The notes below the pieces were generated by a model. The model did not search any database. It was not told the origin of the DNA and saw only the letters and a list, made by a program, of their open reading frames with translations. From the NCBI GenBank assembly GCA_016926185.1, contig JAFGPD010000010.1:1444-65443 (forward strand): a stretch of DNA of 64,000 nt, given 5' to 3'. This DNA comes from Candidatus Woesebacteria bacterium. Its GTDB lineage: Bacteria > Patescibacteriota > Microgenomatia > UBA8517. The position numbers were made by a program, and so were the translations under genes. This document shows positions 786 through 61,799 of this stretch, piece by piece (positions within the stretch are counted from its first letter, which is position 1; every line of letters begins with the position of its first letter).

Positions 786-1016
786 ATGGCTAAAGTACAG
801 TTCTCGGGAAAAGCAATAAAGAAAATGGAAGATTCAAATCTTTCTGAGAAGAAAGTGTTGGATGCCTATAAGGGCGGTGATGAGCAAAAGTGGAGTAACG
901 GAAAAGGATTCAATTCAGTAAAGAAGTACCCGGGATATGAAATTGGTGTTGCTTATTTTAAAAATGATGAGGGAACTTCTATTATCACTTCAGTATGGAA
1001 AAGAAAAAGAAGATAA
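786..1016 (+). CDS. DUF4258-like small protein (toxin-like fold), paralogous in motif to the 22532-22822 gene
   Basis: 76 aa; C-terminal ITSVWKRK resembles the IISVWSKK end of the 22532 protein, which carries the HALERMRDRGI hallmark of DUF4258. Confidence 0.4.
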   Translation: MAKVQFSGKAIKKMEDSNLSEKKVLDAYKGGDEQKWSNGKGFNSVKKYPGYEIGVAYFKNDEGTSIITSVWKRKRR

Positions 1017-1017
1017 T

Positions 1018-1046
1018 TTGACCCTATAATATATAAGAGGTAAAAT
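1018..1046 (+). promoter_or_regulatory. Sigma70-like promoter TTGACC-N17-TAAAAT ending 8 nt before the ATG at 1055 (leaderless-type)
   Basis: TTGACC at 1018-1023, 17-nt spacer, TAAAAT at 1041-1046; an 18-mer TTTGACCCTATAATATAT identical to 10737-10754. Confidence 0.45.
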
Positions 1047-1054
1047 ATAAAGCA

Positions 1055-1339
1055 ATGGGAGAAAGATATAACGGTTATCCTTTGCTTTTTACTGAGGATC
1101 CTGAACCAGAGATAGTCGAGCTAAACCAACGAGAGGATGAGGTTCTGTATGAGAGATTTGAAGGGAATGATGTCCTTAGCTGGAAAGTCGAAGGTGTTCA
1201 CCCTGGAAGAAATCCGTTGGTTTTGGGACGTTTTCATGATGAAGAAGGTAGATTTGATGGATATTATCATGTAAAAGTGCTTGATGGTAAACCAAAAGAA
1301 ATATTAGTATCTCCAGATAAAATGACTAAAAGGGAATAA
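1055..1339 (+). CDS. Hypothetical small acidic protein
   Basis: 94-aa ORF directly downstream of the conserved promoter box; no recognisable domain. Confidence 0.4.
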   Translation: MGERYNGYPLLFTEDPEPEIVELNQREDEVLYERFEGNDVLSWKVEGVHPGRNPLVLGRFHDEEGRFDGYYHVKVLDGKPKEILVSPDKMTKRE

Positions 1340-1436
1340 ACTGTAACTTTTTAAATAAATTGCCTTCGGCTTCGCCTTCGTAATTTTTATATCTTTTACT
1401 ACTGTTTTCCATTTGTTTATTTTTTTAAACGCTGTT

Positions 1437-1470
1437 AATATTCTCACATTCTTGAGAAAGTGAGAATATT
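1437..1470. promoter_or_regulatory. Perfect 11-bp inverted repeat (AATATTCTCAC-N12-GTGAGAATATT), candidate ArsR autoregulatory operator
   Basis: Palindrome read directly; ends 16 nt before the ArsR-family gene ATG at 1487. Confidence 0.5.
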
Positions 1471-1486
1471 AGGATAAAGTGAATGT

Positions 1487-1753
1487 ATGAATACCAAACG
1501 ACTTCAAAAGATTGTAAAAGGTTTTTCGAATCATAGAAGAATTCAAATTATGGAACTTTTGGAAACTTATCCTGATTTATCTTTGTCTGACATTGCAAGC
1601 AGAACTAAGATTAATTTAAAAACAGCAGGTGAACACACAAGAAGACTTGATGCATCTGGTTTAATAGAAAAAAATTACAGGGGAAGAGATGTGATACATT
1701 CACTAACAATTTTAGGCAAGAACATTCTTACGTTCTTAAGAAAGTTAGAATGA
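1487..1753 (+). CDS. ArsR/SmtB-family winged-helix transcriptional regulator
   Basis: 88 aa; NHRRIQIMELLETYPDLSLSDIASRT matches the ArsR HTH signature. Confidence 0.7.
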   Translation: MNTKRLQKIVKGFSNHRRIQIMELLETYPDLSLSDIASRTKINLKTAGEHTRRLDASGLIEKNYRGRDVIHSLTILGKNILTFLRKLE

Positions 1754-1786
1754 TTTGGAATCTCTGAATTTGACCCATTTTAAATA

Positions 1787-1815
1787 TTGACGCTTTTTAT
1801 TTCACGCGGTTTAAT
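1787..1815 (+). promoter_or_regulatory. Conserved promoter copy 1 (TTGACG-N17-TTTAAT) abutting the ATG at 1822
   Basis: TATTGACGCTTTTTATTTCACGCGGTTTAAT; near-identical copies at 6154-6184 and 6521-6551. Confidence 0.45.
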
Positions 1816-1821
1816 GGAGAC

Positions 1822-2121
1822 ATGAGTGACACCAATAAATTGTTTCAAAAAATTGTGAATGGCCAGAGTGCCATGAAGCAAGCAATCCTAAAAGAAGTAA
1901 AAAAGGTAGATAGTAAACTGAGTGGCAGGATGGATACTCTTGAACAGAAACTTGGCAAACTTGATAAAAAAATTGATAAAGGATTCAAGGAAGTTAATAA
2001 CCGATTGGATAAGCAGGGAAAATCTTTAGCTTATCTGGAAGATGATGCTCCAACGGTTGAGGAATTTGATAAGCTGGAAGAAAGAGTTACCGAGATTGAG
2101 GATAAAGTGCTTCACGCTTGA
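1822..2121 (+). CDS. Small coiled-coil protein, paralog A (unknown function)
   Basis: 99 aa, heptad-rich and charged, no TM; paralog of 6191-6469 at the DNA level, including a ~57-nt near-identical 3' stretch. Confidence 0.55.
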   Translation: MSDTNKLFQKIVNGQSAMKQAILKEVKKVDSKLSGRMDTLEQKLGKLDKKIDKGFKEVNNRLDKQGKSLAYLEDDAPTVEEFDKLEERVTEIEDKVLHA

Positions 2122-2152
2122 TTTGACATAAATTGCCTTTGCACCCAATTTT

Positions 2153-3601
2153 TTAATGGGTAATTATATCTTTTAACACTTTATTGAGCTTATTTCCATC
2201 CCACAATTCAACATTATTTGAAGATGCCAATTGTCTTGCACTTTTGGTAAATTTAGAGGTTGTGATGACCATAGCTCTGTCACATTTATAATGCTTTGTT
2301 GCTGCAACAGCTTCTTGAATTGCCTTATTGGTAACTGGCTTAGAGTATCTTTTTGCTTGTACCGCGATTTTTTCTCCTCCCTTTTTTATGATCAGATCAG
2401 CACCCTGGTCACCCGAAACAGGTGTTTTTACTACCAAGTGTCCAAGTTTTTTGAATAAATCTTGTAAAAGATCTTCGAATTCAATACCACTCAGATCATT
2501 TATTTTTCTACTAGAAAATTGGTTGGCAGAGGAACTTTTTCCCATTTTTAGTTCATTCTCGAAATTTTCAATCTCTTTTTGTTCTTCTTTTCTTTTTATT
2601 AAATCAATGATCTCTTCTTCCGGCAGGTCTTCGGTAGTAATATCCAGCTCTATAAATAATCGATTTAAAGTATAAGAAAATACCTCGTTGAAGTCCGTTT
2701 CGTACTCTCTGAGTGTTGGTATGGTGTCTTGGGTTTTCATTGCCGATAAACATGCTACAAAAGAAGTAACTACATCGTCTTTGGTAATAACATAACTTTC
2801 TGGTTCGTTAGATTTAGACTGTTTTAAATGAATAAATGTTGCTTCCCTGAGAGATCTGAATAAAGCTTCTTTCTGCGGACCCAGATTTATTGCTCTCAAT
2901 TTCTTGTGTTTATTCAGAAGCAGATCAGTAAGTTCCTCGTAATTTAAGCTGATGTCATTCTTTTCAAATATTGCCAACAGTTTTGGATAATCACTAAATA
3001 TGGTCAGCATCGATTCGAGCATGTCTTTGAATTGGCTATCCGGAGAGTCTACTTCCGGAAAACTCTGTTCTATTTCGATAATTTTATTACTGATAGTCAT
3101 TTTTATATTATCAATATCATTTAACCTTATCGCATTGAGAATAAATGGTGCTTTAGGAATAATGGCAAGTGAGGCAAAGTGTGCATTCCCAACTCTTTCG
3201 ATAAAAGATTTAAGAAAGTCTGTTTCAAGTTTTGCGATCTTCTCTTCCAGTTGTGTTATACGCAGTTTTTTTTCTTGTTCATTCTTTTTTATTTCATTTT
3301 TGATCTTTTCATAATTTTCTAAAGCAGAACTTTCTGAATCTTCTATGGAGATCTCTATACCATATTCACTTAAGAGCCTTTGGTTTAAAAGCGTAAAGGT
3401 GGACAACAGATCTTCTTCGGATGTTTCTTGATCCACTTCATCAATTAGTGTACGTATCAAAGCAAGTGTGATTTCATCCTGGGTTATCTCATAAAGATCA
3501 AGACTGCTTAGCCGGCTTTCTACTTTCGGTTTGACAATGTCTAGTAAATTCTCAAGGTGTTCAAGTGCTTTTTGTATTGCCATATCACGTTGGTTTGACA
3601 T
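2153..3601 (-). CDS. Mrr-like type IV restriction endonuclease catalytic domain fused to a ~350-aa N-terminal domain of unknown function
   Basis: C-terminal GADLIIKKGGEKIAVQAKRYSKP...VITTSKFTKSA...VELWDG matches the Mrr_cat PD-(D/E)xK-like core; N-terminal part is coiled-coil-rich with no recognised domain. Confidence 0.6.
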   Translation of the reverse strand: MSNQRDMAIQKALEHLENLLDIVKPKVESRLSSLDLYEITQDEITLALIRTLIDEVDQETSEEDLLSTFTLLNQRLLSEYGIEISIEDSESSALENYEKIKNEIKKNEQEKKLRITQLEEKIAKLETDFLKSFIERVGNAHFASLAIIPKAPFILNAIRLNDIDNIKMTISNKIIEIEQSFPEVDSPDSQFKDMLESMLTIFSDYPKLLAIFEKNDISLNYEELTDLLLNKHKKLRAINLGPQKEALFRSLREATFIHLKQSKSNEPESYVITKDDVVTSFVACLSAMKTQDTIPTLREYETDFNEVFSYTLNRLFIELDITTEDLPEEEIIDLIKRKEEQKEIENFENELKMGKSSSANQFSSRKINDLSGIEFEDLLQDLFKKLGHLVVKTPVSGDQGADLIIKKGGEKIAVQAKRYSKPVTNKAIQEAVAATKHYKCDRAMVITTSKFTKSARQLASSNNVELWDGNKLNKVLKDIITH

Positions 3602-3691
3602 TGCCTTATTTTAGCAAATAGGAGTAAATAAAAATGGAGAATCTTACGGTATATGATCAAAATAAATATTACTCGAAACCAACCTACACAT

Positions 3692-3720
3692 TTGACCCTA
3701 TAGTGGATAAGGGTATATAA
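3692..3720 (+). promoter_or_regulatory. TTGACC-N16/17-TATATA promoter box upstream of a 17-codon ORF and the GmrSD-like gene
   Basis: CATTTGACCCTATAGTGGATAAGGGTATATAA; same motif family as 1018, 6779, 7556 and 10738. Confidence 0.4.
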
Positions 3721-3825
3721 TTTACCCATATTCATGGCAAAAAAGAACACTTCTGGTAGAGAGAATCTAGAGATATTTGCATAGATTGCAAAAGATGTTA
3801 GAAATATGTGAGAATACAGAAGAAA

Positions 3826-5562
3826 ATGGAAATTATTACAGATAAGAAAAAACTTGTTGATCTGGTAACAGGTGCAAGAAAAGGAAAAGTTGTTTTGCCT
3901 CAATTTCAAAGATCATTTGTCTGGTCTTATGTAGATGTTGTTGATTTATTGGTTTCAATTTTTAATGGTTATTATGTAGGAAGCTTTTTAACTTTGAAGT
4001 GTGACAGTGAGAATGTACCCTTTGACTTTCGTACTATCGAGGGAGTTAATAAACAAAATGAAGATCTTAATCCAGAGGTGATGATACTGGATGGACAACA
4101 AAGGATTACTACACTTCATTATGTATTGTATGCGCCGGAAGAAATTACACTAAAGTACGCGAAATATCCTTATAGATTTTTTCTGAAACTTGATAGTTTG
4201 GTTAATGGTGATTTTGATAATGCAATTTATGGTATTAGATCAGACCAGTCAGAGAAATATATGTCACCCGAGTGGCAGTTCGAGAATAAAACCATTCCAT
4301 TCACAACACTTCAGGACTTTCAATCTTGGGATTCTTGGCTTGATAGTTACCAAGATTGGCTGCGCTCAATAGATGAAGAACAGTACGAAAATTATGTTAC
4401 CGCAGAGAGAGCAGACTGGAAGCAATCAATAAATGTATTTTTCGACATGGTTATACCAATAATCGAGATACCGAAAGTCAAAAGTGATGACGAAGACGGC
4501 GTAGCGGAAGTGTGCGCTATCTTTGAAAAAATTAACACAAAAGGTGTGAAATTATCGGTATTTGATTTGCTTACTGCCCGTCTTTTTAAATACAAAATTG
4601 ACCTGCATAAGTTATGGGAGGAAACACTAGAAACTTATAATTTGATAGATGATTTTTCGGAGGGGGAAAGTAACCCATATGGTATTTTTATTTTGAGAAT
4701 TATAGCGCTCATTAGAGGAGTCGATGTTAAAAGTAAAAATCTGATAAATTTGAAGCCAAATAACTTTGAGAATGATTGGGCGAACGCGTCAAAATATTTA
4801 CACAAAGCACTAAAAAGATTGATATCAACTAACGACGACGGTTTCGGCGTTTTTGATAAAAAATGGATGCCATATCCACCACTTCTCCCTGTATTATCTT
4901 CAGTTTTGTACCTTATCGATAAAAATAATTATAATAATTCCGCCTATAAAGCAATTAAAAAGTGGTATTGGGGATCTGTATTTGGCGAGAGATATCAAAG
5001 CGCTGTTGAAAGCAAGACAACATCGGATTTTAGAGAGATATCTCGCTACCTATCTGGTGAAGAAGTAAGCATTAAACTGTTTACTGAAATAGATGCAAAT
5101 ATAACTCTTAACGAACTATATGAAGTGAAGAGTGTCAACAGGATCAATTCAATTTATAAAGGAGTGATGAACTTATTAGCAATTAACCAAGCAAGAGATT
5201 TCCTGTTGCATGATAGTATTGAATTTCATGAACTTGATGATCACCACATTTTCCCGAAAGCATATTTGGCCAAAATTAAAGATGAGGAAGATCAGGTAAA
5301 GTATAAAGATAATTTGATAAATACAATCGTGAATAAAACCCTGATAAGTTATAGTACAAATAGAAAAATAAGTAAAAAGAAACCATCCGATTATGTAAAG
5401 GATAATAATTTAATTGTTCAGGCTTCTGTTAAAAGTATTTTGAAACGTCACTTTATCAATCAGGAAGCGTACGAGGCTATGTGTATGAATGATTATGAAA
5501 AATTTGTTAATGAGAGGAGTAACGTGTTAGTTAAAAAGATTAAGTCGCTTCTCCAAATTTGA
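3826..5562 (+). CDS. GmrSD-like type IV restriction enzyme (DUF262 ParB-like nuclease N-domain + DUF1524 HNH-like C-domain)
   Basis: LPQFQRSFVW and DGQQRITT (DUF262 signatures) near the N-terminus; HELDDHHIFPKAYL near the C-terminus (DUF1524-like); first in-frame ATG at 3826, although the ORF opens at a GTG at 3808. Confidence 0.75.
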   Translation: MEIITDKKKLVDLVTGARKGKVVLPQFQRSFVWSYVDVVDLLVSIFNGYYVGSFLTLKCDSENVPFDFRTIEGVNKQNEDLNPEVMILDGQQRITTLHYVLYAPEEITLKYAKYPYRFFLKLDSLVNGDFDNAIYGIRSDQSEKYMSPEWQFENKTIPFTTLQDFQSWDSWLDSYQDWLRSIDEEQYENYVTAERADWKQSINVFFDMVIPIIEIPKVKSDDEDGVAEVCAIFEKINTKGVKLSVFDLLTARLFKYKIDLHKLWEETLETYNLIDDFSEGESNPYGIFILRIIALIRGVDVKSKNLINLKPNNFENDWANASKYLHKALKRLISTNDDGFGVFDKKWMPYPPLLPVLSSVLYLIDKNNYNNSAYKAIKKWYWGSVFGERYQSAVESKTTSDFREISRYLSGEEVSIKLFTEIDANITLNELYEVKSVNRINSIYKGVMNLLAINQARDFLLHDSIEFHELDDHHIFPKAYLAKIKDEEDQVKYKDNLINTIVNKTLISYSTNRKISKKKPSDYVKDNNLIVQASVKSILKRHFINQEAYEAMCMNDYEKFVNERSNVLVKKIKSLLQI

Positions 5563-5619
5563 TCCTTTACCTTTTCTTCTATTTAGTTTCTATTTTATGC
5601 ATGCTATTCTTAGCCACCG

Positions 5620-6102
5620 ATGCAGAGAGATTTGATCTACAAGATTGCAAAGAATGAATTTATATTAGGAGACGAGTCTTTGCATGGAGAAGAACACTGG
5701 AGTAGAGTGGAGAAAATTGGTATATATTTGTCTGAGTTGACCGGTGCGGATGTTGATGTGGTAAGGATATTCGCCTACTTACATGATTGTAAAAGAGAAA
5801 ACGAAATGGAGGATCCCGGGCACGGGGAAAGAGCTGCTGAACTAGTCAAGAAATTGTCCGCGGAAGGTGTTTTGCAGCTAGGTGAGAAGAGTCTGTCGGA
5901 ACTTATTTATGCTTGTTATCATCACAATAAAAAGAGTAAATCTTCTGAGAATATAAATATATTGACTTGTTGGGATAGTGACGCCTTAGATTTGTGGAGA
6001 ATTGATATTGTTCCCGACCCTAATTGGCTAAATACGAAAGAAGCCAGAAGCAGAAAATTAATTAGCTTTTCCTATAAATTATTTGAAAAGTATAAAAAGT
6101 AA
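5620..6102 (+). CDS. Small HD-domain phosphohydrolase
   Basis: HGEEHWSRV ... YLHDCKRE ... DPGHGERAAELV gives an H..HD..H..D arrangement. Confidence 0.5.
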   Translation: MQRDLIYKIAKNEFILGDESLHGEEHWSRVEKIGIYLSELTGADVDVVRIFAYLHDCKRENEMEDPGHGERAAELVKKLSAEGVLQLGEKSLSELIYACYHHNKKSKSSENINILTCWDSDALDLWRIDIVPDPNWLNTKEARSRKLISFSYKLFEKYKK

Positions 6103-6155
6103 GACCCTAATAGTAAGTATGATGTGTATTAACATCTGAATTGACTCTTTATATA

Positions 6156-6184
6156 TTGACGCTTTTTATTTCACGCGGTTTAAT
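6156..6184 (+). promoter_or_regulatory. Conserved promoter copy 2 (TTGACG-N17-TTTAAT) 6 nt before the ATG at 6191
   Basis: Near-identical to 1787-1815. Confidence 0.45.
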
Positions 6185-6190
6185 AAGGAT

Positions 6191-6469
6191 ATGGATGATG
6201 TAAAGAAAATGTTTCAAAAAATTGTGAATGGCCAGAGCGCCATGAAACAAGAGATACTTAAAGGAATTAAAAAAGTAGAGGATAAACTAACAAGCAGAAT
6301 AGACGGACTTGAAAAGAAAACTGAAAAAGGATTCAAAGAAGTTAATAGCCGTTTAGATAAACAAGGAAAATCCTTAGCTTATCTGGAGGATGATGCTCCA
6401 ACGGTTGAGGAATTTGATAAGCTGGAAAAAAGAGTTGCCAAGATTGAGCAAAAAGTGCTTCACGCTTGA
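6191..6469 (+). CDS. Small coiled-coil protein, paralog B
   Basis: 92 aa; MFQKIVNGQSAMKQ...LAYLEDDAPTVEEFDKLE...KVLHA shared with paralog A. Confidence 0.55.
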   Translation: MDDVKKMFQKIVNGQSAMKQEILKGIKKVEDKLTSRIDGLEKKTEKGFKEVNSRLDKQGKSLAYLEDDAPTVEEFDKLEKRVAKIEQKVLHA

Positions 6470-6522
6470 TTTAACATAAATTGCCTTCGGTGAAAATGGA
6501 TATAATTTGACCTTTTTAAATA

Positions 6523-6551
6523 TTGACGCTTACTATTTCATGCGGTTTAAT
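6523..6551 (+). promoter_or_regulatory. Conserved promoter copy 3 (TTGACG-N17-TTTAAT) before the ATG at 6558
   Basis: TATTGACGCTTACTATTTCATGCGGTTTAAT, a diverged copy of the 1787 and 6156 element. Confidence 0.4.
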
Positions 6552-6557
6552 AGGGAT

Positions 6558-6767
6558 ATGGCAGATAAATTCCTCACTGAAGAAGATATAGATCTTTTGG
6601 AATCAAGACTAAAAGAAGTTTTTGTGACAAAAGAAGACTTCACGGAATATAAAAGTGAACTCTTTGGTAAGTTGGACGAAATAATCAAAAATACCCGTGA
6701 TACTAATGATGAAGTTGAACTTGTTGAAAATAGAATTACCACAATTGAGACAAAGTTAGCTTCATAA
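6558..6767 (+). CDS. Small coiled-coil protein sharing the promoter of the paralogs but not their sequence
   Basis: 69 aa from the ATG at 6558 (MADKFLTEEDIDLLESRLKE...); the annotated ORF start at 6507 would lie inside the promoter box. Confidence 0.4.
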   Translation: MADKFLTEEDIDLLESRLKEVFVTKEDFTEYKSELFGKLDEIIKNTRDTNDEVELVENRITTIETKLAS

Positions 6768-6778
6768 ATTTTCCCAAT

Positions 6779-6807
6779 TTGACCCCATAATGTGTTGGAT
6801 GTAATAT
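6779..6807 (+). promoter_or_regulatory. TTGACC-N17-TAATAT promoter 7 nt upstream of the ATG at 6815
   Basis: CAATTTGACCCCATAATGTGTTGGATGTAATAT. Confidence 0.4.
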
Positions 6808-6814
6808 TGGGCTG

Positions 6815-7240
6815 ATGAGTACGAAAATAGCACTTCTTATGTCCACTAATGATTGGGAGAAGATGAATATTTATCTTAAGCACTTGTCGAAGAATCAAAG
6901 GGCAGCTTGGAGAAATAATCTTAAATATAGCAAGCGATTTCTTGAAAGTATCGGCTATCCAATCAATTTATATTTCTTTCACAGAAATATAGTTAAATTC
7001 AGAGCAAATTGCGTTGGAATTTTCCAAAAAAAAGACAGAATGTGGCTGGATGGCGAGATACCTGAAGAGTATAAGTCTTCTAAGACTGAGTTTACGACAG
7101 CGGTTTATTTCGATAAACTGAAAAGGGTTAAAGATACACATATAAGTGAGTTTCCAAAGTGGGATGACCCCTCGGAAAGTTTTGAAAGAGGACAGCAGGG
7201 ACTATTAAGAGTTGTAGATCTATTGGATATAGAAAATTGA
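6815..7240 (+). CDS. Hypothetical protein
   Basis: 141-aa ORF with its own promoter box; no recognised domain. Confidence 0.4.
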   Translation: MSTKIALLMSTNDWEKMNIYLKHLSKNQRAAWRNNLKYSKRFLESIGYPINLYFFHRNIVKFRANCVGIFQKKDRMWLDGEIPEEYKSSKTEFTTAVYFDKLKRVKDTHISEFPKWDDPSESFERGQQGLLRVVDLLDIEN

Positions 7241-7241
7241 A

Positions 7242-7529
7242 ATGAAAATCTTTGGTGGTTTATTAATAATATTTGGTTCTGTTTGGACTTTATGGCGATT
7301 GCTGAAACAACCCGAGATGTTTAGGATCACTAGGCAAAACAAAAAAGATAAAGGTAAATTGTCAGGAATCATCACCTATATTTTTTCAGAAACTTTTGGG
7401 TTATGGCCTAGTTTATTGATCATTTATTTTGGATTGAAAATGACAATTCCCGGGATCTTGCCGATTTTTACTAAAGCCGTATATGCACTTATTTTTGCTT
7501 TACTTCTTTTGTTTTTCGGTTTAATATGA
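7242..7529 (+). CDS. Hypothetical small membrane protein (3 predicted TM segments)
   Basis: 95 aa, hydrophobic stretches; starts 1 nt after the upstream stop. Confidence 0.35.
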   Translation: MKIFGGLLIIFGSVWTLWRLLKQPEMFRITRQNKKDKGKLSGIITYIFSETFGLWPSLLIIYFGLKMTIPGILPIFTKAVYALIFALLLLFFGLI

Positions 7530-7555
7530 ACAACTGAATTAACTTTCCTTCCAAT

Positions 7556-7584
7556 TTGACCCCATAGTCTTATCTAAGTATAAT
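7556..7584 (+). promoter_or_regulatory. TTGACC-N17-TATAAT promoter 10 nt upstream of the ATG at 7595
   Basis: CAATTTGACCCCATAGTCTTATCTAAGTATAAT. Confidence 0.45.
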
Positions 7585-7594
7585 ATCCTATATT

Positions 7595-8260
7595 ATGGAA
7601 AGATTGCACGGGGTTGAAGTGCTAAGAAATTATTCTTTCAAAGATACCTCATTACCTTATGAGATAGCTTTGGATAAATTATCTTTAAGAACACAGGCTG
7701 CAGTCGGAAAAAATATTGATGATCTGAGGGCTAAGCAAGATTATAATTCCCATCGAAAGAAAGCTCTTAGAGAATTGGATCAGTTGGAACAAATATTTGA
7801 AATAGATACAATACGCGGCGGTTTCTCTTTTAATGAGGATGAACTTAATGAAGTTTATGAGAGTATGGGTCACTTATCATATTCTGAGATCGTCAGAGGG
7901 TTCGGAGATGATATTCTTCCAAGGTTTTTTGGAGGAGTCTTGTCTGAACGTACGCCGGGAGCCACAATATCGGGATACTTGCTGGATATTACTCAAATTG
8001 TTAACCCGGATGTTGTCTCATACGAAGATAGTATAAGGGAAATGGCGAATTCTCTAAGAGGTACCAAAACTAACCCGTTTATGTTAGGTATCTGTTTTGA
8101 TGATGCAATAAATTTGAGAGGAACAGCCACCTTACCTCATGAATTTTTTATGGATAGTGAAGAAGCGAAAAGATTTGTGCAGGTATATCGCAATTCAATT
8201 AATCCTATGGAAAGAAAAGAATTTAAACAGGGATTAGATTTAAAAATAGTTGCATTGTAA
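7595..8260 (+). CDS. Hypothetical protein
   Basis: 221-aa ORF; no recognised motifs. Confidence 0.45.
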   Translation: MERLHGVEVLRNYSFKDTSLPYEIALDKLSLRTQAAVGKNIDDLRAKQDYNSHRKKALRELDQLEQIFEIDTIRGGFSFNEDELNEVYESMGHLSYSEIVRGFGDDILPRFFGGVLSERTPGATISGYLLDITQIVNPDVVSYEDSIREMANSLRGTKTNPFMLGICFDDAINLRGTATLPHEFFMDSEEAKRFVQVYRNSINPMERKEFKQGLDLKIVAL

Positions 8261-8356
8261 TAAAAAGACTTACACATCCAGATTATTGAAATAAATTGTC
8301 TTCGAGTTCCTGACTTTTTAATTTGACCACTGTATCTAAAGTGTGACAAGATATAG

Positions 8357-10705
8357 ATGTACTTAATGACAGATCTGAAGAATTTTTTCTCTAAATTCAA
8401 AACGAATAAAAAGCTGAAATATATTCTTATTTTCTATTGCGTAATTATTGTTTCCTTCCTCTTTTACAAAGCACTGAACGCCGATTTTAACTTTAATTTA
8501 GGAAAGATCGATGACTGGCAATTCACTCCTGATGTGACTTCTTCACTTTATGATCTTGATATAGGTAAATTTATGCGCAATTTGTCGGTTGTACAGTTTT
8601 TTGTGCTTATTGTTCTTCATTTTCTATATGCTCTTATACCGATAAACATTTTTTATCTGAATTATCGTTTTTTTGGATTTATTGTACGCAGGTTCAGAAA
8701 AGAGCTTAAATTCGGCAGCCGAAAGAATGTTGGCAGATCTATTCTTCTGCTTATTTTGGGAATTTTATCTGCCGGTGCCACAGTTTACTTATCTATACAA
8801 AGCAATTGGATCCTGCCTCCTGTTTTGGGTGCGGCAGTAATAGTATTAGCGTTAACACTTATTTATATAATCGTTTCCTCAATTTTATTGATTGTTAGAA
8901 CACTGAACATAATTTACAGAAAGCTGGCTAATAAATCCCTTTTTGGCATGAAGAGGAAATGGCTGTGGAACTTTAGTAGTGTAGTATCTGTATTGCTAAT
9001 ATTGGTGTGGGTGGGATTAAATATATGGGAAATATTTTTCGGGATTGATCTTTTCAGTGCTACAAATATCACTCCGGTTGGTGGTGGTCTAACGTCGATG
9101 AGCGCACCCTCATTCGGTTCATCTACAGGTACTTTCAATCTATCGCCTGATAGTGCACTCATGCCGTCAGGGGGAGGAGGATTTAGCGGTAGAACCTCTG
9201 ACAATATAGGCTTTTCTACAGGAGGAGCGAAGGATATAAATAACTTCAGGGAAAATATTAAAAATAAATACTTACCGCTTTTTACCGACGTGACTTATGA
9301 GGGACTTTTCTATGATTATTATTTTGATACTGGTCAGCAAGAGGAATGTGCTGAGCTTTTTTGTCCGTCGTATAGTTATGCACAATCTGCCGATCCGCTG
9401 TCAGGAGAGCCGCAATATTTCCTTTCGGTCGGCCTAAATTCCGGCATTAAACAATCTGATTTCCAAAGAAAGAAGCTCAATCTTGTTATTGTGATGGATA
9501 TTTCCGGCTCTATGAGCTCGAGTTTTAATAGATATTACTACGATCGTAAAACTAACGAATATGATGCTGAAGAGGAAAGTAAAAGCAAGATGCAGGTTGC
9601 GAATGAATCGGTTGTTGCGTTGCTTGATCATTTAAATCCTCAGGACAGGTACGGAATGGTATTGTTTGACGGCAGTGCTTATCTGGCTAAACCACTGAGG
9701 CTTTTAGATACAACAGACCTGGAAAGTATAAAGGGTCACATTCTTGAGATATCTCCGCAGGGTTCTACGAACATGGAGGCGGGATATAAACTCGGTACTG
9801 AGGTTATTGAAGAATACTTGGATATAGACCCCGAGGAATATGAGAATAGGATAATCTTTTTGACCGATGCACAGCCCAACACCGGTGTTTTAAGCGAGGA
9901 AGGATTGGTAGGACTATCTCTAAATAATGCAGATAGGGGAATCTATACTACATTTATCGGGATCGGAGTGGATTTTAATACCGAGCTTATTGAAGCAATG
10001 ACAAAGATAAAGGGTGCCAATTACTATTCTATTCACTCTGCTTCTGACTTTAAGTACAGAATGGATGAAGGTTTTGACTATATGGTCACACCTTTGGTTT
10101 TTGATCTTGTTTTAAAGCTTGATAGTCCTGGGTTTACTATTGATAAGGTATATGGATCTCCGGAGGCGAATCTGGCAACTGGGGAGATAATGAGAGTTAA
10201 TACCTTATTCCCATCTGATAGCACATCGGAAGGTGTTAAGGGAGGAATTGTTCTTCTGAAATTATCTAAAAATACTGATTCGGCTGAGGAAGTGAGTTTG
10301 GAGGTTTCATACGAGGATCGATTGGGTCAGCTGCACAATAATGAAAAGAAAGCAAATATAACAGTTATGGACAGCGATTATTATCCCAATACTGGTGTAC
10401 GAAAAGCAATATTGCTGACACGCTATGCAAATCTTTTGAAAAATTGGATACAAGATCAAAGATCAATATCTCAGCAAAACACTACTTATACAGAACCCTG
10501 TGTAAGTTCTGAGAGTGGTATTATTATTCCGGTTGAGAGAGAATTAAGTCGGTGGGAGAGAACTTCAGTTCCTTTAAAGGTAATGCCCGAATACAGGGAC
10601 TTCTTTTTTACATTTAATAATTACTTCGTTCAGGAAATGCAATATTTGCAGGATCAGGATCTTGAACGGGAGGTGCAGGTTTTTGATCTTTTAATTAACA
10701 ATTAA
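8357..10705 (+). CDS. Multi-TM membrane protein with Gly/Ser-rich linker and von Willebrand factor A (vWA) domain
   Basis: Several N-terminal hydrophobic helices; Gly-rich segment containing GTFNLSP; vWA MIDAS-like LNLVIVMDISGSMSS and later FLTDAQPNTG. Confidence 0.6.
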   Translation: MYLMTDLKNFFSKFKTNKKLKYILIFYCVIIVSFLFYKALNADFNFNLGKIDDWQFTPDVTSSLYDLDIGKFMRNLSVVQFFVLIVLHFLYALIPINIFYLNYRFFGFIVRRFRKELKFGSRKNVGRSILLLILGILSAGATVYLSIQSNWILPPVLGAAVIVLALTLIYIIVSSILLIVRTLNIIYRKLANKSLFGMKRKWLWNFSSVVSVLLILVWVGLNIWEIFFGIDLFSATNITPVGGGLTSMSAPSFGSSTGTFNLSPDSALMPSGGGGFSGRTSDNIGFSTGGAKDINNFRENIKNKYLPLFTDVTYEGLFYDYYFDTGQQEECAELFCPSYSYAQSADPLSGEPQYFLSVGLNSGIKQSDFQRKKLNLVIVMDISGSMSSSFNRYYYDRKTNEYDAEEESKSKMQVANESVVALLDHLNPQDRYGMVLFDGSAYLAKPLRLLDTTDLESIKGHILEISPQGSTNMEAGYKLGTEVIEEYLDIDPEEYENRIIFLTDAQPNTGVLSEEGLVGLSLNNADRGIYTTFIGIGVDFNTELIEAMTKIKGANYYSIHSASDFKYRMDEGFDYMVTPLVFDLVLKLDSPGFTIDKVYGSPEANLATGEIMRVNTLFPSDSTSEGVKGGIVLLKLSKNTDSAEEVSLEVSYEDRLGQLHNNEKKANITVMDSDYYPNTGVRKAILLTRYANLLKNWIQDQRSISQQNTTYTEPCVSSESGIIIPVERELSRWERTSVPLKVMPEYRDFFFTFNNYFVQEMQYLQDQDLEREVQVFDLLINN

Positions 10706-10737
10706 AGTGTGACATTGTACTTTTTTGTTCTTCTAGT

Positions 10738-10766
10738 TTGACCCTATAATATATTTGAGTTAAAAT
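10738..10766 (+). promoter_or_regulatory. TTGACC-N17-TAAAAT promoter 7 nt upstream of the ATG at 10774
   Basis: Near-identical to the 1018-1046 box. Confidence 0.45.
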
Positions 10767-10773
10767 ACTTGTA

Positions 10774-11043
10774 ATGGAATGTATAAAATGGCTGAGAGAA
10801 AGATTTTTCAAAGGAATTCGCGAAGTGAATGAGGACTCTGGAGAGAAGGCTTTTGGAAGATTACCTGAGAATATTCAAGCTGATTTGACATCTGCAAACG
10901 TAGAGGACCGTATTAAAGCTGCCAACTGGCTGGCAGAACAGGAACTAACTGGAAAGATCAGTCGTGGCACTGGTTCAGCACAGAGTTTTGCTGCAGACGT
11001 AATAGCACAGAGAGAATTATCTTCAAAAAATACAAAAAGTTGA
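10774..11043 (+). CDS. Hypothetical small protein
   Basis: 89-aa ORF behind the conserved promoter. Confidence 0.4.
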   Translation: MECIKWLRERFFKGIREVNEDSGEKAFGRLPENIQADLTSANVEDRIKAANWLAEQELTGKISRGTGSAQSFAADVIAQRELSSKNTKS

Positions 11044-11295
11044 TAGTTTTACAGATTAATTTCAAGGCCCTGTTTAAAGTTTTTAGACCTTAAGGTTTGG
11101 TAATTACTTTATTTTGTGGTATAATTTCCATGTGACAAGCAGATCGAAGGAATATATCTGCTTAAATAGATTTAACGTTTTGAGTAAATAAGATAAGGAT
11201 ACCCCAAATAGATTTAATTAATTAAAGTATCTTCATCAGCAAATTCATTATAAGTTTCTTCATTTAGGCAGTTATGTTTTTTTGATCTTAAGATC

Positions 11296-12480
11296 ATGTA
11301 TAAAAGACATTATCACAGTAGAAACAACAGAGGAGCAAACAACAAAAGAATTAATAATGCTAGTCAGGTAGTTAGTGCTATACGTGCTATTAAATCTCTT
11401 CCAAAGGAAAGTATAAGTGATGACTCCGATAAATTCATTCCATTGAATGAATTTAAAGACTTTGCAATATCGGACAGATTGAAGTTAAACATACAAAACA
11501 AAAGATATGAACTTCCTACTCCGATCCAGGACAAGGCTATTCCCTCTATTCTTGATGGGCGAGATATTATTGGAATTGCCAATACCGGAACCGGAAAAAC
11601 CGCAGCTTTTCTCATTCCTCTAATTGAAAAGGTTTCAAGAGATCCCAGTCAAAAAGTAATTATTATTTTACCGACAAGAGAGCTCGCGGATCAGACCAGC
11701 GACGAGTTGTATGGATTTACATACGGAACACCGGTAAGCTGGACAGTGTGTGTAGGAGGGAAAAATATGGTAAAGCAAATTAACGACCTGGAAAAAGGAC
11801 CAAATTTTGTAATAGGAACACCGGGAAGACTTCTTGATCTGTCCAAGAAAGGCTTTTTGAATTTAAGAGAATTTGGAAATGTTGTACTCGACGAGGCTGA
11901 CAGAATGGTTGATATGGGCTTTATTCGAGATATTAGATATTTTATTGCCAATCTACCGAAAGACCGTCAGTCTTTGTTTTTCTCTGCAACCATTCCACCA
12001 AAAGTGGGAGAGATCTTGAAAAATTTTGTATCAGATCCGGTGACGATATCTGTTAAAAAAAGTGATGCAATTTCCAATATAGATCACGAGCTGATAAATG
12101 TTAACAATAAAGCAGCCAAGTTCAAAAAACTCAGCGATCTATTAAGAAGAGATGAACTGGAAAAAGTACTGATTTTTGGGCGTACAAAATGGGGTGTGCA
12201 AAAGCTTTCCAATGAACTTTATAAGAAAGGTTTCAATACGGGTGCGATACATGGGAACAAAAACCAATCGCAACGACAAAGAGTACTTGATGATTTTAAG
12301 GCTGGAAGGATCAGGATCATGATCGCAACAGATGTTTTGTCAAGAGGAATAGATGTTGATGACATTAGTCATGTAATTAACTATGACCTCCCGGGTTCGT
12401 ATGAGGATTATATTCACAGGATCGGGCGTACTGGACGGGCGAAAAAAAACGGAGTAGCGCTGACTTTTGTAGAAAATTGA
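11296..12480 (+). CDS. DEAD-box ATP-dependent RNA helicase
   Basis: Q-motif ELPTPIQ, Walker A NTGTGKTAAF, DEAD (VLDEADRM), SAT, HRIGRTGRA. Confidence 0.85.
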   Translation: MYKRHYHSRNNRGANNKRINNASQVVSAIRAIKSLPKESISDDSDKFIPLNEFKDFAISDRLKLNIQNKRYELPTPIQDKAIPSILDGRDIIGIANTGTGKTAAFLIPLIEKVSRDPSQKVIIILPTRELADQTSDELYGFTYGTPVSWTVCVGGKNMVKQINDLEKGPNFVIGTPGRLLDLSKKGFLNLREFGNVVLDEADRMVDMGFIRDIRYFIANLPKDRQSLFFSATIPPKVGEILKNFVSDPVTISVKKSDAISNIDHELINVNNKAAKFKKLSDLLRRDELEKVLIFGRTKWGVQKLSNELYKKGFNTGAIHGNKNQSQRQRVLDDFKAGRIRIMIATDVLSRGIDVDDISHVINYDLPGSYEDYIHRIGRTGRAKKNGVALTFVEN

Positions 12481-12608
12481 ATATTATTGCTTGTTCTTGC
12501 ATGGCGATTTGCTATTATAATGATTTACGCGTATACTTCAGTTTGGTTAATGAAGTATTACGAAAAGCCGAATTCTTCGGGTAAATATAACATATATAAT
12601 TTATAAAA

Positions 12609-13076
12609 ATGAACAATTACAGATCTGACAGAGATAGAGGAAGAAACTTCAGAAGAAACTCCGATGATAGAGGAGGAAGACGTGAAATGTTTGATGCCGT
12701 TTGTGCTAACTGTGGAAACGATTGCAAAATTCCTTTCCAGCCACGAAATGATAAACCTGTATACTGCAGTGATTGTTTTGAAAAAATGGGTGGCGGTGAT
12801 GATAGGAATTCAGGGAGGAGATCCCGACGCGATGACTCACGAAGGACAAGCACGAGCGGATTTAGATCTGGCGGTTTTGATAAGAATGAATTCGAGAAAC
12901 TCAATAAAGGTATAGAAGCGATGAATAAAAAGCTTGACAAGATAATAATATTGCTTTCTCCTGCCGACGTTAAAGAAAAGTCAGAACCGGAAGCTAAAAA
13001 GAAAAAAGAAGCACCAAAAGAAAAAGCTCTAAAAACCAAAAAACCTGCAAAGAAAGAAAAAAAGGAAAGTAAATAA
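12609..13076 (+). CDS. RG-rich / zinc-ribbon / Lys-rich small protein, possibly a detached C-terminal module of the helicase
   Basis: N-terminal RSDRDRGRNFRR...RGGRRE, CxxC-x17-CxxC (CANCGNDCKIPFQPRNDKPVYCSDC), C-terminal KKKKEAPKEKALKTKKPAKKEKKE. Confidence 0.5.
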   Translation: MNNYRSDRDRGRNFRRNSDDRGGRREMFDAVCANCGNDCKIPFQPRNDKPVYCSDCFEKMGGGDDRNSGRRSRRDDSRRTSTSGFRSGGFDKNEFEKLNKGIEAMNKKLDKIIILLSPADVKEKSEPEAKKKKEAPKEKALKTKKPAKKEKKESK

Positions 13077-13452
13077 ATTTTCTTATCTTCATATTTAAAC
13101 TAATTTTTTTTGACCAAAGCTAAAAAGTTGACCGAAAGTTACTTATAAAACTACACGTCCAATAAGAATAATTTAGTCAATTAAATTAGCATTATTTATG
13201 GTAATATTGAATTATCATTAACGAACAAACTACCGAGAAACTAATTGAACAATTTGAAAAAAAGGGAGGTCGGATCAATAGATACTACCTTTCAAGACCT
13301 ATATTGAAAGGCCCGGCTCTTGTATATCTTAAAGGTTGGTACCGCGGCAGCAATCTTCGCGATGCAGTTATCAGAGCCCTGAAAAAAGATTAACTTCCAT
13401 TATATAAAATATTAATTATCTGATCCTGCTCTTTCTAAAGACAATTTGTAGT

Positions 13453-13481
13453 TTGACCGAAGGATAGGGCAAAGGTAAAAT
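13453..13481 (+). promoter_or_regulatory. TTGACC-N17-TAAAAT promoter upstream of a 28-codon uORF and the Cas4-like gene
   Basis: AGTTTGACCGAAGGATAGGGCAAAGGTAAAAT. Confidence 0.4.
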
Positions 13482-13567
13482 AACATGCAGATGTCAAAGC
13501 ATTACCCCCCTTCGTCTTTAGTCATACTAAAGACTACGGAAGGGCAGGCAATCCAAAACATACAATT

Positions 13568-23643: not shown

Positions 23644-23817
23644 GGAGTCGTTTTGGCGTGTTATTATTGGGTTGTGATATGACTTAAGGTTATATTTTCA
23701 ATGAGATCTCAAGCTTCGTTTAAGATGTGGTATTCTGTTGAAAAGCCCAATCAAGATCAACAGCAATGTTTGTAATCTTTACTTGACAAAATGTAATGTT
23801 TGTATTACATTTTATAT

Positions 23818-61797: not shown

Positions 61798-61799
61798 GC

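What the first reader, a model, noticed from the sequence alone, without database searches (positions are those of the whole stretch)
1018..13490. Recurrent TTTGACC(C)-N17-TAAAAT/TATAAT box a few nt upstream of ATGs, implying an island-wide leaderless promoter cassette
At least seven genes are preceded by the same architecture. Examples: 1018-1046 before ATG 1055; 3692-3720; 6779-6807 before 6815; 7556-7584 before 7595; 8324-8352 before 8357 (weaker -10); 10738-10766 before 10774; 13453-13481. The 18-mer TTTGACCCTATAATATAT is identical at 1017-1034 and 10737-10754 although the downstream proteins are unrelated. Distance from the -10 hexamer to ATG is only ~7-10 nt, so there is no room for a Shine-Dalgarno leader. 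The same logic applies at 23784-23820 (TTGACA-N17-TACATT then ATG 23818) and probably 26707-26725. Core genes here (for example 15515 and 58887) instead have long leaders with strong AGGAGG sites. Two expression modes therefore coexist, and the promoter box looks like a portable unit attached to small accessory genes.
Basis: seen in the sequence. Interest (0 to 1): 0.6.

Follow-up and report, generated by a model that had tools for sequence, protein, structure and literature searches.

The report
Repeated strong promoter box, leaderless genes
A cluster of accessory and defence genes in an uncultured Woesebacteria genome carries a repeated, near-consensus bacterial promoter box placed so close to the start codons that the mRNAs must have almost no leader; this leaderless layout is the norm for the whole genome, and only the repeated box is special to the cluster.

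Summary
TTGACC-N17/18-TAnhAT-N5-12-ATG occurs 6 times in the window against 0.03 expected, all on the + strand between 1018 and 13493. The 18-mer at 1017 and 10737 is identical. The source is a Candidatus Woesebacteria MAG (candidate phyla radiation).

- **Leaderless is genome-wide.** A -10 hexamer 5-12 nt before the ATG precedes 20 of 57 first genes across the window, against 3% of internal ATGs. It also precedes 24% of first genes in 40 related contigs. Strong Shine-Dalgarno sites are the exception (15515, 58887). This is the known GeneMarkS-2 'group C' pattern.
- **The box is what is island-specific.** The core AATTTGACCC supplies a consensus-like -35. Core genes instead use -10-only or TGn-extended -10 promoters.
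- **The box is more than a -35.** In five window copies the whole ~34-nt module is conserved, spacer included. The same module (85% identical) lies before an unrelated gene on another metagenome contig, which carries seven boxes in 8.6 kb. Most of those are not at -35 spacing.

Best reading: sigma-70-type promoters driving leaderless accessory genes, copied as a unit. An extra regulatory or recombination role for the 11-nt core is not excluded. There are no transcription-start data. Moderate interest.

The parts
1015..1046 (+). Class-1 promoter module: core AATTTGACCC 1015-1024 (-35 TTGACC 1018-1023), 17-nt spacer CTATAATATATAAGAGG, -10 TAAAAT 1041-1046. ATG 1055 follows 8 nt later (94-aa protein with no homologue found).
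   Evidence: start agrees with NCBI protein JXA63_00795
1767..1815 (+). Class-2 arrangement: core AATTTGACCC 1767-1776 lies 17 nt upstream of a second -35. The promoter is TTGACG 1787-1792, N17, TTTAAT 1810-1815, then 6 nt to ATG 1822 (coiled-coil paralogue 1).
   Evidence: repeat family D3
3689..3721 (+). Class-1 module: CATTTGACCC, 18-nt spacer, -10 TATAAT 3716-3721. It is followed by a 16-codon upstream ORF 3734-3784; the GmrSD gene starts at 3826.
5556..5565 (+). Degenerate box AATTTGATCC overlapping the TGA stop of the GmrSD gene, 55 nt before the HD-domain gene (ATG 5620).
   Evidence: sequence
6138..6184 (+). Degenerate box GAATTGACTC (TTGACT 6141-6146), then TTGACG 6156-6161, N17, TTTAAT 6179-6184, then 6 nt to ATG 6191 (coiled-coil paralogue 2).
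6504..6551 (+). Class-2 arrangement: box AATTTGACCT 6504-6513, then TTGACG 6523-6528, N17, TTTAAT 6546-6551, then 6 nt to ATG 6558.
6776..6807 (+). Class-1 module: AATTTGACCC, spacer CCATAATGTGTTGGATG, -10 TAATAT 6802-6807. ATG 6815 follows 7 nt later. The first 18 nt are identical to L141 2552-2569.
7553..7584 (+). Class-1 module: AATTTGACCC, spacer CCATAGTCTTATCTAAG, -10 TATAAT 7579-7584. ATG 7595 follows 10 nt later (221-aa all-helical protein).
   Evidence: N-terminus supported by 58 homologues
8320..8329 (+). Box AATTTGACCA with no acceptable -10 at 16-18 nt. ATG 8357 (VWA-domain protein) lies 28 nt after the box.
10735..10766 (+). Class-1 module: AGTTTGACCC, spacer CTATAATATATTTGAGT, -10 TAAAAT 10761-10766. 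ATG 10774 follows 7 nt later (89-aa protein with no homologue found).
13450..13481 (+). Promoter AGTTTGACCG, N17, TAAAAT 13476-13481. A leaderless-type upstream ORF 13485-13571 has a stop that overlaps ATG 13568 of the PD-(D/E)XK gene.
23783..23811 (+). Separate -35/-10 promoter outside the island: TTGACA, N17, TACATT, then 6 nt to ATG 23818. A 9-nt palindrome spans the spacer and the -10.
26707..26715 (+). Example of the core-genome promoter type: TGtTACAAT (extended -10, no -35), then 7 nt to ATG 26723.

Best explanation
The boxes are housekeeping (sigma-70-type) promoters of an accessory and defence gene cluster in a Candidatus Woesebacteria genome.

**How it would work.** Region 4 of sigma would read the TTGACC inside the conserved core AATTTGACCC as a -35 element. 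A TAAAAT, TATAAT or TAATAT -10 follows 17-18 nt later. Transcription would then begin 6-8 nt after the -10, at or within about 3 nt of the ATG. The mRNA is therefore leaderless and would be translated without a Shine-Dalgarno interaction, by direct ribosome binding to a 5'-terminal AUG.

**What is general and what is local.** Leaderless initiation is the default of this genome and its relatives. Most core genes use -10-only or TGn-extended -10 promoters in the same position. The island differs in having a consensus-like -35, which predicts stronger and activator-independent expression of each small gene as its own transcription unit.

**Copied as a unit.** Five window copies plus one in another genome share the whole ~34-nt module, including spacer positions CYATART and T9, T11, G14, A15. 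The module was therefore most likely copied as a unit in front of unrelated genes rather than evolved independently.

**Leader variants.** At 3692 and 13453 the promoter instead feeds a short upstream ORF. The one at 13485 is stop-start coupled (ATGA) to the PD-(D/E)XK gene.

**Shown versus inferred.** Shown: motif statistics, positions, conservation and absence of Shine-Dalgarno sites. Inferred: promoter activity, transcription start positions, leaderless translation and copying as a unit.
For: - **Composite promoter+ATG pattern:** 6 observed against 0.03 expected. The highest-scoring sigma-70 consensus matches in 1-16 kb are these boxes, at 10-11 of 12 positions.
- **Position and orientation:** all boxes are intergenic and co-oriented with the downstream gene. 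Ten of 11 intergenic TTTGACC copies lie in the island.
- **Distance to the start:** the gap between the -10 and the ATG peaks at 6-8 nt window-wide. This equals the 6-8 nt reported for leaderless 'group C' genomes (PMC6028130).
- **Few Shine-Dalgarno sites:** SD-like 4-mers occur in only 6 of 69 genes.
- **Start codons:** NCBI calls agree, and homologues of the 7595 protein align from residue 1-2.
- **No room for leaders:** divergent genes 61797(-) and 61818(+) are 20 nt apart with interdigitated -10 boxes.
- **Relatives:** 129 of 536 first genes have a -10 hexamer 5-12 nt before the ATG, and 64 of 536 have an SD 4-mer.
- **The host polymerase uses -35 elements elsewhere:** Lon has TTGACA-17-TAGACT here and a similar TTGACA...TAGACT layout in L144.
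- **Two promoter classes:** no box promoter has TGn, while 6 of 19 non-box leaderless promoters do.
- **Spacer conservation:** mean pairwise identity is 61% against 28.5 +/- 2.7% for shuffles.
- **Cross-genome module:** L141 2552-2584 is 85% identical to window 1015-1047, before an unrelated gene.
Against: - There are no transcription-start or expression data of any kind.
- Window boxes 1770 and 6507 have a -10-like TTTAAT only 34 nt downstream, with a separate TTGACG -35 in between. Box 8323 has no acceptable -10.
- On L141, six of the seven AAATTTGACC(CC) copies have no TAnnnT hexamer 16-18 nt downstream. Their spacers are 26 or 31 nt, or no gene follows. The conserved 11-mer is therefore not explained by a -35 role alone.
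- Sigma contacts about 6-7 bp of a -35 element, which does not explain conservation of AA upstream, CC downstream and the CYATART spacer block.
- No box lies on the - strand, although the islands contain five - strand genes.
- My gene map is a crude longest-ORF call, though it matches the three NCBI-annotated proteins that could be checked.
Confidence: 0.6

Rival explanations
1. The 11-nt core (C)AAATTTGACC(C) is mainly the binding site of a DNA-binding protein, either an island-encoded or a host regulator. That protein would co-regulate the accessory genes, for example by silencing or activating them. In many copies the site happens to overlap the -35 position. This can coexist with promoter function.
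For: - The core is conserved over 10-12 nt, longer than a -35 hexamer, in three different assemblies: the window, L141 and L142.
- On L141, six of seven copies have no -10 hexamer at promoter spacing. The genes there have their own -10 hexamers at leaderless distance, 26-31 nt from the box.
- In the window, class-2 copies sit just upstream of a complete second promoter.
- The spacer block CYATART is conserved beyond any known polymerase requirement.
- The island encodes a winged-helix protein (1487-1753).
Against: - The box is not palindromic and has no direct-repeat partner, which is unusual for dimeric helix-turn-helix regulators.
- The winged-helix gene has its own different 17-nt palindromic operator (1436-1471).
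- No DNA-binding protein is shared between the window island and L141.
- Box-to--10 distances (17, 18, 26, 31, 31, 34) are not in helical phase.
Confidence: 0.2
2. The box marks cassette junctions. It would be a short recombination or homology site at which promoter-plus-gene units are inserted, duplicated or exchanged between related genomes. That would make it an integron-like array without attC sites, or recombination between direct 34-nt repeats. This would explain why unrelated genes carry the same module.
For: - Eleven of 13 junctions between + strand genes from 1016 to 10774 carry a box or a degenerate box, all in one orientation.
- The same holds on L141, with seven boxes in 8.6 kb.
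- Two boxes overlap the stop codon of the upstream gene (window 5556-5565; L141 2841-2850), and one abuts a stop codon (window 1014-1016).
- The three box-driven proteins searched had no hit but themselves in a word-indexed search. A full HMMER scan, run for one of them, found only relatives of 40% identity or less.
- A near-identical module lies before unrelated genes in two genomes whose one shared protein is 40% identical.
Against: - No integrase, recombinase or transposase was detected in the window island, in the 4.3 kb to its left (L139) or on L141.
- The box has no inverted-repeat partner, so there is no attC-like or terminal-inverted-repeat structure.
- Paralogue homology (1760-2139 against 6132-6487) runs through the box rather than ending at it (sequence).
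- The distance from box to next ATG is tight (35-53 nt in 12 of 17 copies) while the distance to the preceding stop varies from 0 to 72 nt. This fits a 5' gene signal better than a junction.
- The island has no GC anomaly.
Confidence: 0.1
3. The pattern is a chance by-product of AT-rich intergenic DNA, in which TTGAC-like and TATAAT-like words are frequent.
For: At a loose threshold, promoter-like matches in 1-16 kb are no more frequent than in shuffles: 53 against 55.6 +/- 8.8.
Against: - The specific composite pattern occurs 6 times against 0.03 expected.
- The 10-mer with at most 1 mismatch occurs 16 times against 6.75 expected, and 0 of 100 shuffles reach that.
- There is strict strand and position bias.
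- Spacer identity lies more than 12 standard deviations above shuffles.
- The box recurs on an independent contig.
Confidence: 0.02

Closest known systems
Leaderless-gene promoters of GeneMarkS-2 'group C' bacteria (Actinobacteria, Deinococcus-Thermus), for example Mycobacterium tuberculosis and Deinococcus deserti (PMC6028130, PMC4007540, PMC4633059, PMC3160421)
   Same: A Pribnow-type -10 box lies 6-8 nt upstream of the start codon of first genes. There is no Shine-Dalgarno site. ATG starts dominate. A minority of Shine-Dalgarno-led genes coexists in the same genome.
   Different: The organism belongs to the candidate phyla radiation (Woesebacteria) and has 37% GC, not a high-GC actinobacterium or Deinococcus. 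My literature searches found no paper describing leaderless predominance in this group. No transcription-start data exist here.
Classical -35/-10 promoters versus extended -10 (TGn) promoters of sigma-70 holoenzyme (textbook E. coli and B. subtilis promoter classes; from general knowledge)
   Same: Island promoters have TTGACC, a 17-18 nt spacer, TAnAAT and no TGn. Core promoters lack a -35, and about a third have TGn. This is the familiar trade-off between the two classes.
   Different: Conservation extends beyond the hexamers, to AA upstream, CC downstream and the CYATART spacer block. The box also occurs uncoupled from a -10.
Promoter-bearing short repeats such as Neisseria Correia elements, and self-promoted cassettes in chromosomal integron arrays (from general knowledge)
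   Same: A short repeated sequence that supplies promoter elements is found in front of many unrelated accessory genes, in one orientation and in arrays.
   Different: The box has no terminal inverted repeats, no target-site duplication, no attC-like hairpin and no integrase (Pfam). The shared unit is only 11-34 nt long.
CtsR operator of Firmicutes (tandem heptads A/GGTCAAA-NAN-A/GGTCAAA, often overlapping -35; from general knowledge)
   Same: The heptad GGTCAAA is the exact reverse complement of TTTGACC and typically overlaps promoter hexamers.
   Different: Only single heptads occur here. There is no tandem copy at 10-nt register, and no CtsR gene was seen in the window.

Membership tests
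Sigma-70-type (-35/-10) bacterial promoter | -35 hexamer close to TTGACA | tested here: met
   TTGACC (5 of 6) at all nine window boxes.
Sigma-70-type (-35/-10) bacterial promoter | -10 hexamer TAnnnT 16-18 nt downstream of the -35 | tested here: met
   Met at 1018, 3692, 6779, 7556, 10738 and 13453. Not met at 8323 or 1770, and met only marginally at 6507 (TACTAT at 18 nt). Not met at six of seven L141 copies.
Sigma-70-type (-35/-10) bacterial promoter | Intergenic and co-oriented with a downstream gene | tested here: met
   Ten of 10 intergenic island copies are on the + strand, upstream of + strand ORFs.
Sigma-70-type (-35/-10) bacterial promoter | Mapped transcription start 6-8 nt downstream of the -10, with activity dependent on the hexamers | not testable with these tools
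   No transcriptome or reporter data are available.
Leaderless mRNA gene (GeneMarkS-2 group C architecture) | Pribnow box about 6-8 (up to about 10) nt upstream of the start codon of the first gene in an operon | tested here: met
   Gaps are 8, 7, 10 and 7 nt at 1055, 6815, 7595 and 10774. The window-wide peak is at 6-8 nt. Twenty of 57 first genes show it, against 3% of internal ATGs.
Leaderless mRNA gene (GeneMarkS-2 group C architecture) | No Shine-Dalgarno sequence between promoter and start; AUG start codon | tested here: met
   None of the four has a Shine-Dalgarno match within 13 nt of its ATG. The GAGG upstream of 1055 abuts the -10 hexamer and lies 14 nt from the ATG. All four start with ATG.
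Leaderless mRNA gene (GeneMarkS-2 group C architecture) | Start codon correctly assigned | tested here: met
   NCBI proteins have identical lengths. Homologues of the 7595 protein align from residue 1-2. This was not checked independently for 1055, 6815 or 10774, for which no homologues were found or searched.
Leaderless mRNA gene (GeneMarkS-2 group C architecture) | mRNA 5' end at the start codon | not testable with these tools
   This needs dRNA-seq or 5'-RACE.
Integron cassette array (attC sites) | Imperfect inverted repeats (R''/L''...L'/R') at each cassette end | tested here: not met
   No inverted repeat involves any box. No GGTCAAA copy lies on the + strand in the island.
Integron cassette array (attC sites) | Tyrosine recombinase IntI adjacent to the array | tested here: inconclusive
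   None was found in the window genes scanned, in the 4.3 kb to the left (L139) or on L141. Contig ends limit the search.
MITE or Correia-type promoter-bearing repeat | Terminal inverted repeats and a repeat body of about 100 nt or more | tested here: not met
   Homology is confined to 11-34 nt and starts abruptly at AATTTGACC.
CtsR operator | Two heptads (A/G)GTCAAA in tandem, 3 nt apart | tested here: not met
   TTTGACYNTNTTTGACY with at most 3 mismatches gives 11 matches against 14 expected. None is at a box except a poor 3-mismatch hit at 1769.

The most novel reading that the evidence does not exclude
AATTTGACCC, with its 34-nt class-1 form, is a lineage-specific mobile promoter or junction element of accessory islands in candidate-phyla-radiation bacteria. 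It would both drive leaderless expression and serve as the short homology or recognition site through which unrelated small genes are captured, duplicated and exchanged between Woesebacteria genomes. Functionally this would be a cassette system without an integron integrase or attC sites. It might also be read by a dedicated DNA-binding protein.
Probability: 0.12. Interest if true: 0.7.

Novelty: new member of a known kind. Interest (0 to 1): 0.35.

Why it matters
- **Gene calling.** Candidate-phyla-radiation bacteria are uncultured and their transcription and translation signals are almost undescribed. This window, with 40 related contigs, suggests that a Woesebacteria lineage expresses most first genes from -10-only promoters as leaderless mRNAs. 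That affects start-codon calling and small-gene annotation in thousands of such genomes.
- **Reading accessory regions.** Genes in the accessory or defence cluster carry a different, -35-containing, highly conserved promoter module. This gives a simple sequence tag for finding such regions. It also suggests that these genes are expressed strongly and independently of one another.
- **A possible route for gene capture.** If the module proves to be mobile or regulator-bound, it would point to a mechanism of gene capture or co-regulation in organisms with very few known mobile elements.

Tried and rejected
- **Genome collection scan** for TTTGACCCYATART-N9-12-TAWAAT. It gave 52 scattered hits, about the chance level by my estimate. 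The source genome is absent from that collection, and candidate-phyla-radiation genomes are not enriched. The scan therefore says nothing about relatives.
- **Metagenome scan** for the 18-mer plus TAAAAT: 0 hits.
- **Viral contig scan** for the box plus a -10: 0 hits. PHROGs found nothing phage-like in the island proteins. A phage origin has no support.
- **Synteny through DEAD-helicase relatives**. All 80 loci share at most 60% protein identity, with no conserved gene order. The island boundaries could not be defined this way.
- **Composition.** The island has no GC anomaly.
- **Rfam and tRNA scans** of the window: nothing found.
- **Protein similarity within the island.** Box-driven proteins are unrelated to each other, apart from the coiled-coil paralogues at 1822 and 6191, which are 73% identical.
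- **Second repeated motif** (A)TAAATTG(C/T)CTTCGG, tested as a possible intrinsic terminator: no consistent hairpin.
- **attC-like or terminal inverted repeats** at the boxes: none.
- **CtsR operator:** rejected.
- **Structure of the 7595 protein family**, sought for a DNA-binding or recombinase fold. The model is confident (pLDDT 94) and all-helical but has no match in the Protein Data Bank, so it was uninformative.

Full report
**Source and setting.** The window has 36.6% GC. Three of its proteins are identical to NCBI proteins JXA63_00795, JXA63_00845 and JXA63_00855 of a 'Candidatus Woesebacteria bacterium' MAG, on a 67,328-nt contig.

Region 1-13.5 kb holds small genes, nearly all on the + strand. 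Their functions are accessory or defence-like:
- an Mrr-type nuclease (2153-3601, - strand);
- a GmrSD/HEC-05-like protein (3826-5562);
- an HD-domain protein;
- a winged-helix protein (1487-1753);
- a VWA-domain protein (8357-10705);
- three coiled-coil paralogues;
- several proteins with no family match.

A contig from the same sample extends 4.3 kb to the left. It adds a ResIII/SWI2-SNF2 protein but no further boxes. The region has no GC anomaly. No tRNA or Rfam family was found in the window.

The independent consensus scan ranks these sites top, at 10-11 of 12 positions. TTTGACC occurs 26 times on both strands. Eleven are intergenic, and ten of those lie in the first 13.5 kb, all co-oriented with the genes. 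AATTTGACCC with at most one mismatch occurs 16 times against 6.75 +/- 2.45 expected. The 18-mer identity between 1017 and 10737 is exact.

Three qualifications apply:
- Box 8323 has no acceptable -10.
- At 3692 the next ATG (3734) opens a 16-codon ORF, and the GmrSD gene starts at 3826.
- At 13453 the ATG (13485/13491) opens a 28/26-codon ORF whose TGA overlaps ATG 13568.

**Leaderless layout is genome-wide, not island-specific.** I used a simple gene map that matches the three NCBI-annotated proteins that could be checked. In it, a -10 hexamer (TAnhAT) lies 5-12 nt before the ATG of 20 of 57 genes that have an upstream gap. That is 7 of 16 in the island and 13 of 41 elsewhere, against 3% of internal ATGs. 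The distance peaks at 6-8 nt.

A scan that ignores gene calls finds 65 TAnhAT-N5-9-ATG sites. Thirty are followed by an ORF of at least 60 codons, and 23 of those sit at the 5' end of a gene. They include the core genes VanW 14373, NUDIX 18886, EamA 18128(-), SurA-like 26723 and the Mrr gene itself. Genes 61797(-) and 61818(+) are 20 nt apart with interdigitated -10 boxes, which leaves no room for leaders.

Shine-Dalgarno-like 4-mers precede only 6 of 69 genes.

Forty contigs carrying DEAD-helicase relatives (48-60% protein identity) show the same picture. Of 536 first genes, 129 have the -10 hexamer, 64 have a Shine-Dalgarno 4-mer and only 7 have a full TTGAC plus -10 plus ATG arrangement.

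This is the architecture GeneMarkS-2 calls group C: a Pribnow box 6-8 nt from the start of first genes in operons (PMC6028130). It is so far described mainly for Actinobacteria and Deinococcus-Thermus. My literature searches found no description of it for candidate-phyla-radiation bacteria.

**What is special to the island.** Core leaderless promoters lack a -35, and 6 of 19 have a TGn-extended -10. The box promoters have TTGACC and never TGn. The polymerase does use -35 elements in some core promoters. One example is Lon, with TTGACA-17-TAGACT here and a similar TTGACA...TAGACT layout in a relative. Another is the promoter at 23783.

The box is more than a hexamer. The conserved core is AATTTGACCC, and homology starts abruptly at that point. 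In five window copies plus one foreign copy the 17-nt spacers are 61% identical on average, against 28.5 +/- 2.7% for shuffles. Spacer positions 1-7 (CYATART) are 84% identical.

From 1016 to 10774, eleven of thirteen junctions between + strand genes carry a box or a one-mismatch variant.

**Related sequences.** The three box-driven proteins searched had no hit but themselves in a word-indexed search. A full HMMER scan found 58 distant homologues of the 7595 protein, at 21-42% identity. Most align from residue 1-2, which supports the annotated start.

The contig of its closest homologue is L141, from a JGI metagenome (8.6 kb, 34% GC). It carries seven copies of (C)AAATTTGACC(CC), all intergenic and all on the + strand:
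- One copy (2552-2584) is a complete class-1 module: TTGACC-17-TAGAAT-7-ATG. It is 85% identical to window 1015-1047 and 18 of 18 identical to window 6776-6793. It stands before a protein unrelated to any in the window.
- Three copies lie 26-31 nt from the -10 hexamers of genes that are themselves leaderless-type.
- The other three have no such partner: one has a gene about 150 nt downstream, one has no gene after it and one sits in a divergent intergenic region.

L142 has a variant box, AAATTTGACTCC, directly after a stop codon. Four other homologue contigs have leaderless-type -10 boxes but no box. In the 80 DEAD-helicase loci, ATTTGACC occurs only as scattered copies, about one to three per contig, rather than in arrays like those of the window and L141.

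**How it most likely works.** The class-1 copies are best read as strong housekeeping promoters. The -10 ends 7-10 nt before an ATG, so the transcript starts at or within about 3 nt of the start codon and is translated without a Shine-Dalgarno site.

Each small accessory gene would then be its own transcription unit. It would be expressed without the activators or extended -10 that core promoters may rely on. Conservation of the whole 34-nt unit before unrelated genes, within one genome and between two genomes whose shared protein is only 40% identical, argues for copying as a unit or for strong selection.

The promoter activity, the start sites and the leaderless translation are all inferred. 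Nothing was measured.

**What this does not explain.** The 11-nt core is equally conserved where it cannot serve as a -35. This applies to window 1770 and 6507, which lie upstream of a complete TTGACG-17-TTTAAT promoter shared by the coiled-coil paralogues, to window 8323 and to six of seven L141 copies.

That leaves room for a regulator-binding site or a cassette-junction role. Evidence against a regulator:
- the box has no dyad or tandem partner;
- no DNA-binding protein is shared between the two islands.

Evidence against a junction site:
- no recombinase was found;
- the box has no inverted repeats;
- paralogue homology runs through the box;
- the distance to the next ATG is tighter than the distance to the previous stop.

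Chance is excluded by the statistics above.

**Comparison with known systems.** The layout works like the leaderless promoters of group C bacteria and fits all sequence-level criteria of that class. It also mirrors the classical split between -35/-10 promoters and extended -10 promoters.

It is not an integron array, because it lacks attC-like structure. It is not a Correia- or MITE-type repeat, because it lacks terminal inverted repeats. It is not a CtsR operator, because only single heptads occur. It is not phage-derived as far as can be seen.

**Verdict.** Leaderless genes are the rule throughout, and Shine-Dalgarno-led genes are the exception. What is new is modest:
- a candidate-phyla-radiation lineage with group-C-type gene starts;
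- a conserved, orientation-locked promoter module that tags accessory genes in at least two genomes, with a variant of its core in a third.

Interest is moderate to low, at 0.35. It would rise only if the box proves to be mobile or bound by a dedicated factor.

Noticed in passing
window 48272-48316: The Lon protease promoter is TTGACA-N17-TAGACT with a 16-nt leader. It contains a CIRCE-like inverted repeat, TTAGCACTA-N9-GACTGCTAA (consensus TTAGCACTC-N9-GAGTGCTAA). This suggests HrcA-type heat-shock control in this Woesebacterium. A related contig (L144) has a similar TTGACA...TAGACT layout before its Lon gene.
   Followed up: partly
window 1436-1471: A 17-nt, 94% complementary palindrome (TAATATTCTCACATTCT / AGAAAGTGAGAATATTA) lies directly upstream of the winged-helix gene 1487-1753. 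It is probably that gene's autoregulatory operator. It is unrelated to the TTTGACC box.
   Followed up: partly
window 735-748, 1350-1373, 2125-2145, 6471-6494, 8286-8309; also L139 about 4140-4160: A second repeated island motif, (A)TAAATTG(C/T)CTTCGG, lies 2-25 nt after stop codons of island genes. It forms no consistent hairpin, so it is not an obvious intrinsic terminator. Its function is unknown.
   Followed up: partly
window 13485-13571: A 28-codon upstream ORF (MQMSKHYPPSSLVILKTTEGQAIQNIQL) starts 3 nt (or 9 nt, at the second ATG) after the -10 hexamer. It contains a 14-nt hairpin (13509-13539) and ends in a TGA that overlaps ATG 13568 of the PD-(D/E)XK/Cas4-like gene. This may be termination-reinitiation coupling or a regulatory leader.
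   Followed up: partly
window 3734-3784: A 16-codon upstream ORF (MAKKNTSGRENLEIFA) lies between the strongest box promoter (3692-3721) and the GmrSD gene (ATG 3826). The GmrSD gene has neither a Shine-Dalgarno site nor a good -10 hexamer next to its start.
   Followed up: no
window 61797-61818: Divergent genes start 20 nt apart. Each gene's -10 box lies inside the other gene's promoter or start region (TATTATATAATA). This is a compact bidirectional leaderless promoter.
   Followed up: partly
window 23783-23811: The promoter TTGACA-17-TACATT-6-ATG carries a perfect 9-nt palindrome, AAATGTAAT...ATTACATTT, across the spacer and the -10. It precedes an operon of a DUF2178 membrane protein and an Xre-type helix-turn-helix protein (24210-24413). 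The palindrome is a likely operator.
   Followed up: no
window 27-50 and L139 4180-4390 (left of the window): Four palindromes of the form ACCGCAA-N-TTGCGGT lie upstream of gene 80-712. They may be operators or RNA hairpins.
   Followed up: no
window 7595-8260: This 221-aa protein belongs to a family with 58 distant homologues. AlphaFold2 gives a confident all-helical model (pLDDT 94, pTM 0.91) with no match to any solved structure (best Foldseek E-value 0.5). The fold is uncharacterised. The gene sits in accessory-gene neighbourhoods on L141 and L144 but among housekeeping genes on L136.
   Followed up: partly
L005, L018, L020, L021, L028, L038 (Dehalococcoidia; a 7th copy, L002, is more divergent); L025, L037, L039 (Margulisbacteria-type): The genome scan turned up near-identical promoter-like sequences, TTTGACCCTATAAT-N10-TATAATcccgcattgcc, in six Dehalococcoidia MAGs. 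A second conserved one occurs in three Margulisbacteria-type MAGs. No Rfam family lies downstream. What they drive is unknown.
   Followed up: partly
L141 8330-8390: A tRNA-like T-arm sequence (GGTTCGAATCC) lies near the end of the box-rich contig. ARAGORN calls no tRNA there. It may be a tRNA fragment marking an island boundary.
   Followed up: partly
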